A stretch of DNA of 64,000 bases from Thalia democratica (taxonomy: Eukaryota): assembly GCA_965202585.1 (NCBI GenBank), contig OZ241827.1:12710001-12774000 (forward strand), read 5' to 3'. This document shows, piece by piece, positions 6,001 to 9,000 of this stretch (the first letter of the stretch is position 1; the number at the start of each line of letters is the position of its first letter). The position numbers were made by a program.

Positions 6001-9000
6001 AATACTTTATACTGTTCCTCGCAGTTTTGACACCCGTGGCATTATCTCACGCACACGAACGTCACTGCCATCAAAGAGGCATTAAAGATTTTTAAACGAA
6101 TCAACAAATAAAAACTCTTTTTTATAGTTTTTACGTTTTAACCAATTTTAAAAGGAAAATGAAAATAATGTCATTTTTGCACAGTTCCTCGCAGTCCTCA
6201 CACCCATGGCCTTGTTCTACGCGTACGAGCATCATTGTCAACTAAAATAATAATATGATAAATGTTTTAAACAAATATTTACATATATGATATTATTTAC
6301 AGTTCCTCGCTGTCCTCACACCGATGGCGTTGTTCTACGCGTACGAGCATCATTGCCAGCAGAAAGCAAATGAGGAGGAGCAAAGAATTAAGGAGGAGGA
6401 TGAGGAAGCCGAGAAGGAGTACAACAGGTGGAACGACGAAACAGACGAGGTAAGATGCTTAACTGTTGCTGAAAACAGTTTTTTTCTTCATTTAGCTGAT
6501 AAACTTTAGCTTGTGCTTGTATTTTCATGTGTCTAGTTTTAATGGATTTAGTACAAAAAAGTATAAAGTTTCGAAGCGCTAGATTTAAGAATGTTTCTTT
6601 AAGATGCTTTCAAATTTGTTTCTTTTATATTATTTACTTATTTATAAATATGAGGAATATGACATAGTGGAACGATGAAACAGAAGAGGTGATATTTTTT
6701 CAAATTGGTTTTGGTTGTCCAAAACTTATTGTTTCAAAAAAAAAAACTGTTTTGAAATTTTTAAATACTAATTTAACGAGTGGTATAGTTAGACTATATA
6801 AAATTTAATTTCTTTAACTCATCTCTTATTTTCATTTGTAATATTTTTACTTTCCAATTTAAACAAAGTTGTAGCTTGAACTCGTGGCTTTTTATTAAAA
6901 TAAAATTCAAATACCTATTAAAACTTTATTTCATGTTCACTATTTTAACAAAGCAAACTAGAATTATCCTAAAAATAACTTATTAAAAAGTAAATACTCT
7001 TTACTATTTTTGGTGAACAACTTCTTTAGTATATCATTTATAAATCATTTGTATTTATAACTTGATAGTTTTTGATAAAATATTTTAATTTATAATTTAT
7101 TCTTATAGGCGGGAAAATTTGTACCTGAAGTAAGAAAGAGAGTGTACAAATACAAGACGAAGTATGATGCAGACGAAAAACACGAAGTTAGTGCACACTT
7201 TATAAAGTAAAGTTTTCTGTGCACACTCAATTTTCTGAAACTTGTGTTCTACGTAATAAAACGATCTGTACACACAAAGTTTAAAAAAATTAAAAAAAAA
7301 TTTGTTTGCTTTTTACTCTTTTCATCAAGTCGAAAAGCACGACATTGGATCATACTGTTTAAAATAAAGTGTCTTGTGCACACTTAATTTTTTTAACCTT
7401 TATATAGAATTTATTAATTAGCAGTTATGTATGGCTAGTTCACACTAAATAAAATAGAGTTTTCTGTGCACACTAAATTTTCTGTTCACTCTAAATTTTT
7501 TGAAAAACTTTATTTGTTTAACTTATACAAAGTATTTTAATACTTTTTCAAAATATATAAAGTAGCATTTTTGACAAGTACGCTGGAGGTGAAAAACACG
7601 GCGTTAGTGCACACTGTTTAAATGAAAACAGTTTAAATGAAAAAATATAACTTTCTGTGCACACTAAATGTGTTGAAACCTTTACATAAAACTAATTTTA
7701 GTGTTTTATAAATTTTTCAGAACAAAATTTTGAAAAAAAAAATTATTTGATAAGTTTTCAACTTTAATATTTTTTGCATAAAAAAACTTCAATTTCAATA
7801 AATACAAGTACTTTGTTATTTTTGTCAAAATCAGTAGCACAGCTGTTCATAATTACCAATTAAAACAGTTATTTTTCCAGATTGTGTCCCACAAATGGCT
7901 GAGGTGGGCCTTCATATTGCACCTGGTGCTGAGGCTTGGGATCGAACTGTTCTTCTGCTACTTGAAGATCAAGCTCTTCACCTACGAAGTCAGTTCTTGT
8001 TTTTGTTTTGGTAAAACTTAAAAAAAAAGAATGCTTTCAAGTTGCAACAGTTAAAAAAAATTCAGAATAAATCATATCCGAAACCCTTTAAAGTCTAAAC
8101 GTACATTTTCTAAATAACGTAAACTTTTTCCGTATACAAACGAAAAACTCTAGCTGAATATTAAAAATCGAACTTCTTTAACAACAAAACAGTTTTCACA
8201 GCCAAAACTAAACACAACCGTAACGATTCAAAACCAAAATATTTGTAAAAGGTTTACATATGCAGTATTTCGGCTATCTTCAGTCATGGCTTAAACATTT
8301 TCGCTGCCAGTAAACGATTGTGAAAACAGGTTGAAGAATGTCAAACTAAATGTTGTCGTTGGTCGTGCGGTGCAGTCTTGTGTGAAAAAAATTATATATG
8401 CTATTTGTAGCGCATTCAAGCCTCGTTAGCTTTAGTTTGTAGATTTATTTTTGAACAGCTGTCGTTGTTTGTATATACTTGCTTTGTGAAGTCCGTAGAT
8501 GGTGAGAGAGGCTCTCCATTTTAACTTTTTATGAAATTTTTGGCCTGTTATAAATTTTTATACAATTAAATTTTATTTTTTTATAATGTTTTATGAGAAT
8601 TACAAATATAGTACACTAAACTACAAACTTTGTAAAGCTACTGTTTTTATCAGGTATTATAAACATAAATAAATTTAAATGTATTCATATACATATATAT
8701 GCTAAACATGATAAAAAATTGTATTTTGTGAAAAATAATTAAAGTTAAGCATTTATATCTTACACCAACATTCTCCGTGACAGGGCAACAGGCCGGAACG
8801 CGATGCTTACGGGCCGAGGCCGGAAGACAAAATTTACGAGTTGGGGCCGCAATACTACGTCAACATGGACGTGCCCGGCAACTACTTGTGCGGGAAATCC
8901 CCGCAGCGAAGAACACAGGCGGTGGCTGACGCGTGCGCGAAAGATTTGAGGGCGAACGGCGCGGTGACGTGCTTCGTCGAGTTTCCCAGGGTAAAGTTAT

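What the first reader, a model, noticed from the sequence alone, without database searches (positions are those of the whole stretch)
8784..8990. Non-canonical, enlarged second extracellular loop (C-x14-C-x11-C) conserved in both connexins
Seen: gene A has C-GKSPQRRTQAVADA-C-AKDLRANGAVT-C and gene B has C-GFDENRRTNAVAKA-C-KQSIEASGYAL-C, the same spacing despite strong divergence. A long pre-cysteine insert (NRPE...YY.NMDVPG.YLC) differs in length between the two. Established: vertebrate connexin EL2 is C-x4/5-C-x5-C, and EL2 determines docking compatibility; EL1 here is canonical. Inference: a distinct subfamily with altered docking, or mainly hemichannel function, or a private A/B compatibility code.
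Basis: partly seen in the sequence, partly recalled or inferred. Interest (0 to 1): 0.68.

Follow-up and report, generated by a model that had tools for sequence, protein, structure and literature searches.

The report
Connexin pair with enlarged second loop
Two neighbouring gap-junction (connexin) genes of an AT-rich animal genome, probably a tunicate, carry a second outer loop more than twice the usual length with its three cysteines spaced far apart, a rare variant that may change how these channels dock between cells.

Summary
Window 8784-8990 (+) is one GT-AG-bounded exon of connexin gene A, and its three cysteines are spaced C-x14-C-x11-C. Gene B (- strand) has the same spacing, but only after a 176-nt intron inside the loop is spliced out. 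An independent full-length database protein (P0003) confirms that splice. Both genes match Pfam Connexin on their EL1, TM2 and TM3 exons, and EL1 is canonical C-x6-C-x3-C. The EL2 exon alone matches neither Pfam nor any solved connexin. A HMMER scan of 1.84 billion proteins with the EL2 exon found only three true relatives. With P0007 this makes five lineages; four keep the exact spacing and P0004 has lost the third cysteine. EL2 is about 36-45 residues longer than in Cx26, lacks N-glycosylation sites and is the least conserved region. I call it a lineage-restricted connexin variant. Its effect on docking is inferred, not shown. The AlphaFold model was too poor to use. I could not check other tunicate connexins.

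The parts
8784..8990 (+). Gene A EL2 exon (69 codons, phase 0 at both ends). It covers the end of TM3's exit, the whole second extracellular loop and CFVEFPR. Cys codons lie at 8889-8891, 8934-8936 and 8970-8972.
   Evidence: GC3 0.78-0.80 against about 22% GC in the flanking introns
8790..8843 (+). Period-27-nt internal repeat inside A's EL2 exon (RPERDAYGP / RPEDKIYEL). It accounts for A's 9 extra residues before the first Cys.
   Evidence: 18 of 27 identical; 5 of 2000 codon shuffles reach this
4747..4837 (+). Gene A exon for the N-terminal helix and TM1 (ISNYGT...MGEK)
   Evidence: 50% identical to the B counterpart
5207..5313 (+). Gene A EL1 exon, C-x6-C-x3-C
   Evidence: Pfam Connexin 33.9 bits, cut-off 31.3
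6303..6449 (+). Gene A exon for TM2 and the start of the cytoplasmic loop
   Evidence: Pfam Connexin 21.4 bits, profile positions 76-123
7109..7186 (+). Gene A cytoplasmic-loop exon
7881..7988 (+). Gene A TM3 exon
   Evidence: Pfam Connexin 15.4 bits, profile positions 139-177
9858..9970 (+). Gene A TM4 exon (EKTYYVRYMN...), with a GTGAGT donor at 9971
   Evidence: 66% identical to B
10893..11043 (+). Gene A last (C-terminal tail) exon including the stop codon. The splice phase fits the TM4 donor.
61318..61365 (-). Gene B exon 1 (MKGAAAYKTLDGWTQK)
   Evidence: tblastn of P0003, 14 of 17 identical
59818..59908 (-). Gene B exon for the N-terminal helix and TM1
59358..59464 (-). Gene B EL1 exon, C-x6-C-x3-C (first of three tandem donor copies)
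   Evidence: Pfam Connexin 42.8 bits on the ORF 59121-59474
58097..58243 (-). Gene B exon for TM2 and the cytoplasmic loop
57036..57113 (-). Gene B cytoplasmic-loop exon
56059..56166 (-). Gene B TM3 exon
54782..54879 (-). Gene B EL2 exon a (NNRPEK...YLCGFDEN plus AG). The first Cys codon is at 54801-54799.
   Evidence: 97% identical to P0003
54606..54781 (-). B-specific intron inside EL2 (176 nt, GT-AG, phase 2). It is the shortest of the 8 introns measured in gene B, and A has no intron at this place.
   Evidence: the database fragments P0002 and P0004 read straight through this position
54524..54605 (-). Gene B EL2 exon b (G plus RTNAVAKACKQSIEASGYALCFVEFYK). The second and third Cys codons are at 54580-54578 and 54544-54542.
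53726..53838 (-). Gene B TM4 exon
53207..53245 (-). Gene B penultimate exon (NKLARPQFDFDD)
52805..52946 (-). Gene B last (tail) exon including the stop codon

Best explanation
Shown (about 0.9 sure): A and B are two intact, convergently oriented, multi-exon paralogues of the connexin family. They belong to a small group of five lineages: A, B/P0003, P0007, P0002 and P0004. In this group the second extracellular loop has been lengthened at three places relative to canonical connexins. About 17-26 residues are added before the first cysteine (N-R-P-E ... Y-Y-x-N-M-D-V-P-G-x-Y-L-C-G), 10 between the first and second cysteines, and 6 between the second and third. The three cysteines, the CF(V/I)EF-x-x-EKT exit into TM4 and a canonical EL1 are kept. 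Inferred mechanism (about 0.4 sure): the three EL2 cysteines still pair with the three EL1 cysteines (first to third, second to second, third to first). The disulfide-stapled core of the connexin extracellular domain would then be preserved, and the inserted segments would loop out as an extra extracellular module. The 6-residue insertion sits in the segment between the second and third cysteines, which I recall to supply the trans-junction contacts in vertebrate connexins. The docking face would therefore be remodelled. I think these channels most likely still dock, but only with partners that carry the same enlarged loop, which would isolate them from canonical connexins of the same animal.
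For: Family: Pfam Connexin is above cut-off on the EL1 exons of A and B and colinear on TM2 and TM3. P0003 scores 103.1 bits, E 2.5e-29. Thirty-four solved connexin chains match at E 1e-12 to 6e-9. The top three Atlas clusters are connexin and Chordata, scoring 0.95, 0.91 and 0.91. Four hydrophobic segments are present and none lies in EL2. Real genes: all exons are open with GT-AG borders and six introns are shared in position. pN is below pS in all 8 exon comparisons. P0003, P0007 and P0008 are complete 350-358-aa proteins on contigs of 1.1-1.2 kb, which is intron-less length, and they reproduce B's splicing. Loop: the exact C-x14-C-x11-C spacing occurs in A, B, P0003, P0007 and P0002. Residues invariant in all six compared sequences are R, E, Y, NMDVP, Y, CG, R, V, AC and F..F. 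The third Cys and TM4 align to Cx26 C180 onward. Between the anchors lie 47 residues against 11 in Cx26. Disulfide logic: Foote et al. 1998 (PMC2132700, abstract and section 15 read) showed that the first Cys of one loop pairs with the third of the other in antiparallel strands. Docking not blocked by glycan: there is no N-x-S/T site in EL1 or EL2 of any member.
Against: No experiment and no usable model bear on docking. EL2 is the least conserved region: 41 of 62 identical between P0003 and P0007, against 30 of 36 in EL1 and 21 of 22 in TM2. Between A and B, pN is 0.34-0.35 in EL2 against 0.20-0.26 in the TM and EL1 exons. This also fits relaxed constraint. P0004 has Tyr in place of the third Cys and 4 extra residues, so the frame is not kept everywhere. 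Foote et al. found little tolerance for shifted cysteines in Cx32. Three of three cnidarian connexin-like proteins with larger, more elaborate loops made no gap junctions in HeLa cells (preprint 10.64898/2026.06.13.731801, section 7). I could not compare other tunicate connexins, so 'restricted to a small group' rests on sequence-detectable relatives only.
Confidence: 0.4

Rival explanations
1. Hemichannel-only connexins: the enlarged EL2 sterically prevents head-to-head docking. A and B would then work as regulated plasma-membrane pores to the outside, for example for ATP release, and not as cell-cell channels.
For: The insertion lies in the docking part of EL2. EL2 is the least conserved region, unlike a self-complementary docking face. 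Cnidarian connexin-like proteins with larger loops gave no gap junctions in 3 of 3 tested. Mouse Cx23 is reported to form hemichannels but not junctions (PMC10598745, passage).
Against: All six cysteines and a canonical EL1 are retained in 5 of 6 sequences. No N-glycosylation site blocks the loops. Two of two protostome connexin-like proteins did form junctions, and zebrafish Cx23 is reported to form junctions.
Confidence: 0.3
2. Neutral decoration: the insertions sit on the outer rim of the extracellular domain and leave docking and gating essentially canonical. The spacing would be a lineage marker with no functional meaning.
For: The largest insertion precedes the first Cys, next to the TM3 exit, and its length varies by 9 residues between A and B through a simple 27-nt repeat. 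EL2 evolves fastest.
Against: The motif Y-x-N-M-D-V-P-x-x-Y-x-C-G inside the insertion is invariant across six sequences that are otherwise 47-65% identical in EL2, apart from the close B/P0003 pair. pN is below pS in both EL2 parts. Two of the three insertions lie between the cysteines, inside the core ladder.
Confidence: 0.2
3. Ordinary for the taxon: long EL2 spacings are widespread among tunicate connexins and simply under-reported, so A and B are typical members and not a distinct group.
For: Tunicate connexins are described as very divergent and not assignable to vertebrate subfamilies (PMC7914757, passages). That study excluded sequences lacking the proper cysteine patterns (same call), so variants could be filtered out of surveys. 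A 69-aa phmmer query cannot detect loops of equal spacing but unrelated sequence.
Against: A HMMER scan of 1,835,955,588 representative proteins with the EL2 exon gave 5 hits at E <= 0.001, and only 3 of them are true relatives. No paper found in 8 searches records this spacing. PMC7066803 states that all connexins except GJB3 and GJE1 have CX4CX5C.
Confidence: 0.2
4. Decaying genes or an annotation artefact: the long loop results from reading intron or pseudo-exon sequence.
For: Both genes carry duplicated exon-junction fragments in their introns. Exon 1 of gene A was not found.
Against: A's EL2 exon is uniformly GC-rich coding sequence with GC3 of 0.78-0.80. The same loop length is present in spliced full-length database proteins. 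pN is below pS throughout.
Confidence: 0.03

Closest known systems
Vertebrate connexins (GJA/GJB/GJC/GJD; e.g. Cx26 chains 2zw3_A and 6uvr_A, Cx43 chain 7f94_A)
   Same: Pfam PF00029 match, four transmembrane segments, and EL1 spaced C-x6-C-x3-C. There are three Cys in EL2, and the third is followed by a CF-x-x-x-x-EKT exit into TM4 that aligns to Cx26 residues 179-216.
   Different: EL2 is C-x14-C-x11-C where vertebrate connexins have CX4CX5C (CX5CX5C in GJB3; PMC7066803). It carries about 36 (B type) to 45 (A) extra residues. The EL2 exon alone matches neither Pfam nor any solved connexin. The genes have 8 or more to 11 coding exons, whereas mammalian connexin coding regions are almost always a single exon according to the preprint.
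Tunicate connexins (e.g. Ciona ciCx30.9, named in preprint 10.64898/2026.06.13.731801)
   Same: Multi-exon gene structure and no clear affinity to a vertebrate subfamily, as the literature describes for tunicates. The nearest Atlas clusters are chordate connexins.
   Different: I could not retrieve any named tunicate connexin sequence, so the EL2 spacing of that group was not compared. The source organism of the window is not identified.
Anthozoan and protostome connexin-like (CxL) domains
   Same: Connexin homologues with larger, more elaborate extracellular loops (preprint sections 7 and 10).
   Different: Anthozoan CxLs have two Cys per loop, are mostly fused to NACHT/LRR domains and are single-exon. 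A and B have three Cys per loop, have no fused domain in the exons found, and score far above the Pfam cut-off.
GJE1 / Cx23
   Same: A connexin that departs from the canonical extracellular cysteine signature and whose docking ability is debated (PMC10598745 passage).
   Different: Cx23 has four extracellular cysteines. A and B keep six and change the spacing instead.
Innexins / pannexins
   Same: Four-TM large-pore channels with larger extracellular loops.
   Different: No Pfam Innexin match. They appear only as low-ranked Atlas look-alikes at 0.77-0.79. They have two Cys per loop, according to a passage of the preprint.

Membership tests
Connexin (Pfam PF00029) | Significant match to the family HMM above its gathering score | tested here: met
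   A's EL1 exon scores 33.9 bits and B's EL1 ORF 42.8 bits, against a cut-off of 31.3. The TM2 and TM3 exons match colinearly below cut-off. The B-like full-length protein P0003 scores 103.1 bits. Joined A and B models were not searched.
Connexin (Pfam PF00029) | Four transmembrane segments in the order NT-TM1-EL1-TM2-CL-TM3-EL2-TM4-CT | tested here: met
   Kyte-Doolittle analysis of P0003 finds four hydrophobic segments at about 24-44, 75-96, 164-186 and 256-285. The A and B exons are colinear with P0003.
Connexin (Pfam PF00029) | EL1 cysteine signature C-x6-C-x3-C | tested here: met
   Cys at exon residues 8, 15 and 19 in both A and B.
Connexin (Pfam PF00029) | EL2 cysteine signature CX4CX5C (CX5CX5C in GJB3) | tested here: not met
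   C-x14-C-x11-C in A, B, P0003, P0007 and P0002. The canonical rule is as stated in PMC7066803. For this reason I file these genes as connexin homologues of a variant type, not as canonical connexins.
Connexin (Pfam PF00029) | Third EL2 Cys followed by the conserved exit into TM4 (CF-V-S-R-P-T-E-K-T in Cx26) | tested here: met
   CFVEFYKEKT of P0003 residues 246-283 aligns to Cx26 residues 179-216.
Connexin (Pfam PF00029) | Hexameric hemichannel and dodecameric junction | not testable with these tools
   The single AlphaFold2 monomer model had mean pLDDT 44.5. A hexamer exceeds the size limit of the complex tool.
Tunicate connexins | Encoded by a tunicate genome | not testable with these tools
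   The window holds no taxonomic marker: Rfam gave 0 matches. Only coarse Atlas taxa (Chordata) are available for the nearest clusters.
Tunicate connexins | Coding region split into several exons | tested here: met
   Eleven coding exons in B and at least eight in A, all GT-AG. The feature is as described in the preprint's introduction.
Two-cysteine connexin relatives (GJE1/Cx23, anthozoan CxL) | Two cysteines per extracellular loop | tested here: not met
   Three Cys in EL1 and three in EL2.
Innexin / pannexin | Match to Pfam Innexin (PF00876) | tested here: not met
   No such match for any exon or for P0003.

The most novel reading that the evidence does not exclude
The enlarged EL2 is a self-contained, disulfide-framed docking module that gives this group a docking code of its own, orthogonal to canonical connexins. 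The fast-diverging residues between the cysteines would then set which paralogues (A-type, B-type) can pair. That would make this a natural system of private gap-junction channels within one animal.
Probability: 0.12. Interest if true: 0.75.

Novelty: new variant of a known kind. Interest (0 to 1): 0.48.

Why it matters
The spacing of the six extracellular cysteines is treated as a hallmark of connexins, and mutagenesis of Cx32 suggested little tolerance for moving them (PMC2132700). A natural group keeps all six cysteines but puts 14 and 11 residues between those of EL2. This would show how far the extracellular scaffold can be remodelled. If these proteins still dock, they offer a natural docking interface that is probably incompatible with canonical connexins. 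That bears on how electrical coupling is kept cell-type specific, and on engineered orthogonal electrical synapses. If they do not dock, they add a chordate case to the recent claim that enlarged loops go with hemichannel-only function in non-chordate connexin-like proteins (preprint 10.64898/2026.06.13.731801). It also shows that surveys which filter on 'proper' cysteine patterns (PMC7914757) would discard such genes.

Tried and rejected
1. Structure. Structure prediction was not accepting jobs. At it accepted alignment A4 (11 rows, effectively 2-3 independent full-length sequences). The model had mean pLDDT 44.5 and pTM 0.31, with 245 of 350 residues below 50, including most of EL2. I did not use it and did not send it to fold search. 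The second job and complex prediction were not spent, because no deeper alignment was available and a hexamer exceeds the size limit.

2. More relatives. The three word-index searches added only P0007. The EL2 exon against longer proteins gave no hit. Full-length P0003 gave 2 of 545 candidates. The EL2 region of P0003 against shorter proteins gave nothing. Cluster look-up gave one further near-identical member, P0008.

3. Spurious hits. P0005 and P0006 are repeat proteins. P0006 is a bacterial surface protein with HYR-like 4-Cys repeats. Both were rejected as chance hits built up by the repeats.

4. NDUFS6. The EL2 exon resembles the mitochondrial complex I protein NDUFS6 in the PDB over 18 residues at E 0.075-0.12. 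I treat this as chance.

5. Atlas on EL2 alone. The best score was 0.82, for a connexin fragment cluster. That is below the level the tool calls more than a lead.

6. Alignments. Alignment A1 scattered gene A's fragments and was not used. The DNA alignment of the A and B loop regions was uninformative.

7. B's EL2 intron. It has no copies elsewhere in the window and no terminal inverted repeat, so there is no sign of a mobile-element origin.

8. Exon 1 of gene A. It was not found by tblastn or by motif scans of 1-4746.

9. Periodicity heuristics. They suggest a strand, P-G turn, strand before the first Cys and a short amphipathic helix between the first and second Cys. This is too weak to count as evidence.

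10. Rfam. It gave no match in the window.
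Full report
**What is at the coordinates**

The window is a very AT-rich eukaryotic sequence with no N. GC is 20-38% per kilobase, and short GC-richer islands turn out to be exons. Window 8784-8990 (+) translates without a stop into 69 residues. It is bounded by an AG acceptor (tgacag|) and a GT donor (|gtaaag). Third-codon-position GC is 0.78-0.80 across the exon, against about 22% GC in the introns. The long loop is therefore not intron read-through.

**The two genes**

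An all-against-all comparison of open frames, splice-site inspection and tblastn of a full-length database relative give two multi-exon genes. They lie about 42 kb apart in convergent orientation.

| Segment | Gene A (+) | Gene B (-) |
|---|---|---|
| Exon 1 | not found | 61365-61318 |
| N-terminus/TM1 | 4747-4837 | 59908-59818 |
| EL1 | 5207-5313 | 59464-59358 |
| TM2/loop | 6303-6449 | 58243-58097 |
| Cytoplasmic loop | 7109-7186 | 57113-57036 |
| TM3 | 7881-7988 | 56166-56059 |
| EL2 | 8784-8990 | 54879-54782 and 54605-54524 |
| TM4 | 9858-9970 | 53838-53726 |
| Penultimate exon | none found | 53245-53207 |
| Tail | 10893-11043 | 52946-52805 |

All introns are GT-AG, and six intron positions are shared between the genes.

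I did not make, search or fold a joined A or B protein. Statements about a full-length protein rest on the database proteins P0003 and P0007.

**Gene B's loop**

In B the loop is not contiguous in the DNA.
- Exon 54879-54782 ends ...YLCGFDEN plus the bases AG.
- A 176-nt intron (54781-54606) follows.
- Exon 54605-54524 begins with G and continues RTNAVAKACKQSIEASGYALCFVEFYK.
- The split codon AGG supplies the arginine that completes x14.

The splice is confirmed independently. P0003 (350 aa) was found by the EL2 search. It is 81-97% identical to B's exons (the tail is 85% by tblastn) and reads ...CGFDENRRTDAVAKACKGSIVSSGYALC.... This intron is the shortest of the 8 measured in gene B, and gene A has no intron at this position. 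The fragments P0002 and P0004 read straight through the same position. An intron gain in the B lineage is therefore the simpler reading; this is inference.

**Are they connexins?**

Yes, by homology.
- Pfam Connexin (PF00029) is above its gathering score on the EL1 exon of A (33.9 bits against 31.3) and on the EL1 frame of B (42.8 bits).
- It matches the TM2 and TM3 exons of both genes at colinear profile positions below cut-off.
- P0003 scores 103.1 bits, E 2.5e-29.
- P0003 matches 34 distinct solved connexin chains at E 1e-12 to 6e-9.
- Its nearest Atlas clusters are chordate connexins (0.95, 0.91, 0.91).
- P0003 has four hydrophobic segments and none inside EL2.
- EL1 is C-x6-C-x3-C in both genes.

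**How the loop differs**

- The EL2 exon on its own matches no Pfam family and no solved connexin.
- The Pfam match of P0003 runs to profile position 173 of 225 and stops at the loop.
- phmmer and a profile of the group align the third cysteine and TM4 (CFVEFYKEKT...) to Cx26 residues 179-216.
- Between the weak TM3-end anchor and that point lie 47 residues in P0003 against 11 in Cx26. That is about 36 extra residues in the B type and 45 in A.
- The extra length is in three places: before the first cysteine, 10 residues between the first and second, and 6 between the second and third.
- A passage in PMC7066803 states that all connexins have CX4CX5C in this loop except GJB3 (CX5CX5C) and GJE1.
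- A's 9 additional residues coincide with a period-27-nt internal repeat, RPERDAYGP / RPEDKIYEL. It is 18 of 27 identical, and 5 of 2000 codon shuffles reach that.

**How widespread**

A HMMER scan of 1,835,955,588 representative proteins with A's EL2 exon returned 5 proteins at E <= 0.001.
- Three are true relatives: P0002 (a 102-aa fragment), P0003 and P0004 (an 83-aa fragment).
- Two are repeat proteins that I reject.
- A word-index search with P0003 added P0007 (358 aa, 77% identical).
- Two other word-index searches found nothing.

All these records are unnamed, and I cite them by handle only.

Over about 59 aligned loop positions the five lineages (A, B/P0003, P0007, P0002, P0004) are 47-65% identical to one another. 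The spacing C-x14-C-x11-C is exact in A, B, P0003, P0007 and P0002. P0004 keeps C-x14-C but has 4 extra residues and Tyr in place of the third cysteine. Residues invariant in all six compared sequences are R and E of N-R-x-E, the run Y-x-N-M-D-V-P-x-x-Y-x-C-G, then R, V, A-C and F-x-x-F.

The bare pattern is not improbable on its own: 8 of 100 shuffles of the window produced one. The conservation among homologues is what makes it real.

**Constraint**

- Between A and B, pN is below pS in all 8 exon comparisons, and synonymous sites are near saturation.
- EL2 has pN 0.34-0.35, like the cytoplasmic loop (0.35) and above TM1, EL1, TM2, TM3 and TM4 (0.20-0.26).
- Between P0003 and P0007, EL2 is the least conserved region. 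It is 41 of 62 identical, against 30 of 36 in EL1, 21 of 22 in TM2 and 30 of 33 in TM3.
- No N-x-S/T site occurs in EL1 or EL2 of any member.

**Mechanism**

The identity and anatomy above are shown. What follows is inferred.

Foote et al. [quoted passage not shown] They also found that shifted cysteines are poorly tolerated. Here EL1 keeps 10 residues between its outer cysteines while EL2 has 26. A conserved ladder of three disulfides would therefore force the two inter-cysteine segments to loop out. Together with the long conserved pre-cysteine segment they would form an added extracellular module.

From my own recollection, not from a call, the residues between the second and third EL2 cysteines of vertebrate connexins (for example N176-D179 of Cx26) make the contacts across the junction. 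Abstracts seen in a search listing place Cx36 and Cx46 docking residues in E2. An insertion there should remodel the docking face.

I rate the readings as follows:
- Docking retained but restricted to partners with the same loop: about 0.4.
- Hemichannel-only function: about 0.3.
- Neutral decoration: about 0.2.

The spacing being ordinary for the taxon (about 0.2) is a separate question and could hold together with any of these.

The preprint 10.64898/2026.06.13.731801 (sections 5, 7 and 12 and passages read) gives the nearest precedent. Three of three cnidarian connexin-like proteins with larger loops made no junctions. Two of two protostome ones did.

**What stayed open**

- The source organism is not identified. 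Rfam found nothing, and only coarse Atlas taxa point to Chordata. 'Tunicate' is an inference from three things: the chordate-type six-cysteine connexin, the multi-exon structure and the literature.
- I could not retrieve named tunicate connexins. It is therefore unsettled whether this spacing is common among them.
- Eight literature searches found no paper that records it. The older tunicate connexin papers I recall (Sasakura 2003, White 2004, Cruciani and Mikalsen 2007) are not in the searched library and I did not see them.
The genomic loci of P0002 and P0004 and published tunicate alignments were therefore not examined.
- The only structure model was of too low confidence to use.

**Verdict**

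The functional part is plausible but untested. This is a new variant of a known kind, of moderate interest.

Noticed in passing
window 59156-59413 (- strand gene B): A tandem repeat of period 93 nt (31 codons), 2.8 copies, 95% matches. It triplicates the 3' end of B's EL1 exon (CFDEYASPSMFRLWAYQ) together with its GT donor and the first intron bases. The reading frame stays open through all three copies, so use of a later donor would insert 31 or 62 residues. The related proteins P0003 and P0007 carry a single copy.
   Followed up: partly
window 5323-5421, 5611-5655, 5752-5850, 5840-5935, 5991-6092, 6152-6247; 53871-53963; 9094-9227: Degenerate extra copies of exon-junction fragments lie inside the introns of both connexin genes. 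Gene A has copies of the EL1 exon end and of the TM2 exon start. Gene B has a copy of the TM4 exon start. A period-38 repeat just after A's EL2 exon seems to resemble its donor junction. Repeated local duplication of splice junctions seems to be a habit of this locus.
   Followed up: partly
window 45520-45726 (+), within 37.9-46.4 kb: An orphan copy of gene A's last (tail) exon, 89% identical in protein and 90% in DNA. It lies inside a direct segmental duplication of about 10.8-18 kb onto 37.9-46.4 kb (88-98% identity). No other connexin exon accompanies it.
   Followed up: partly
window 12593-14017 (-), 29999-31426 (+), 38431-39855 (-): Three open frames of about 475 aa, about 90% alike in DNA, with BACK and Kelch-repeat domains (KLHL-like; no BTB part in these frames). 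They lie between the two connexin genes as direct and inverted duplicates.
   Followed up: partly
database protein P0004 (no window coordinates): One relative of the loop has Tyr in place of the third EL2 cysteine and 4 extra residues between the second and third positions. It may be a pseudogene fragment or a five-cysteine variant.
   Followed up: no
window 47826-48179 (-): A GC-richer open frame of 117 aa with no Pfam match. Its nature is unknown.
   Followed up: partly
window 2464-2655 (-) and 3486-3818 (+): Two frames share the peptide GVFNGSFL and neighbouring similarity. This suggests a dispersed repeat upstream of gene A.
   Followed up: no
EL1 of A (5207-5313) and B (59464-59358): Between the first two EL1 cysteines both genes have charged residues (C-S-T-K-D-P-G-C and C-D-T-K-E-A-G-C). 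Cx26 has C-N-T-L-Q-P-G-C in the alignment. These are positions that I recall as EL1 docking contacts in Cx26, so EL1's docking face may be altered too.
   Followed up: no
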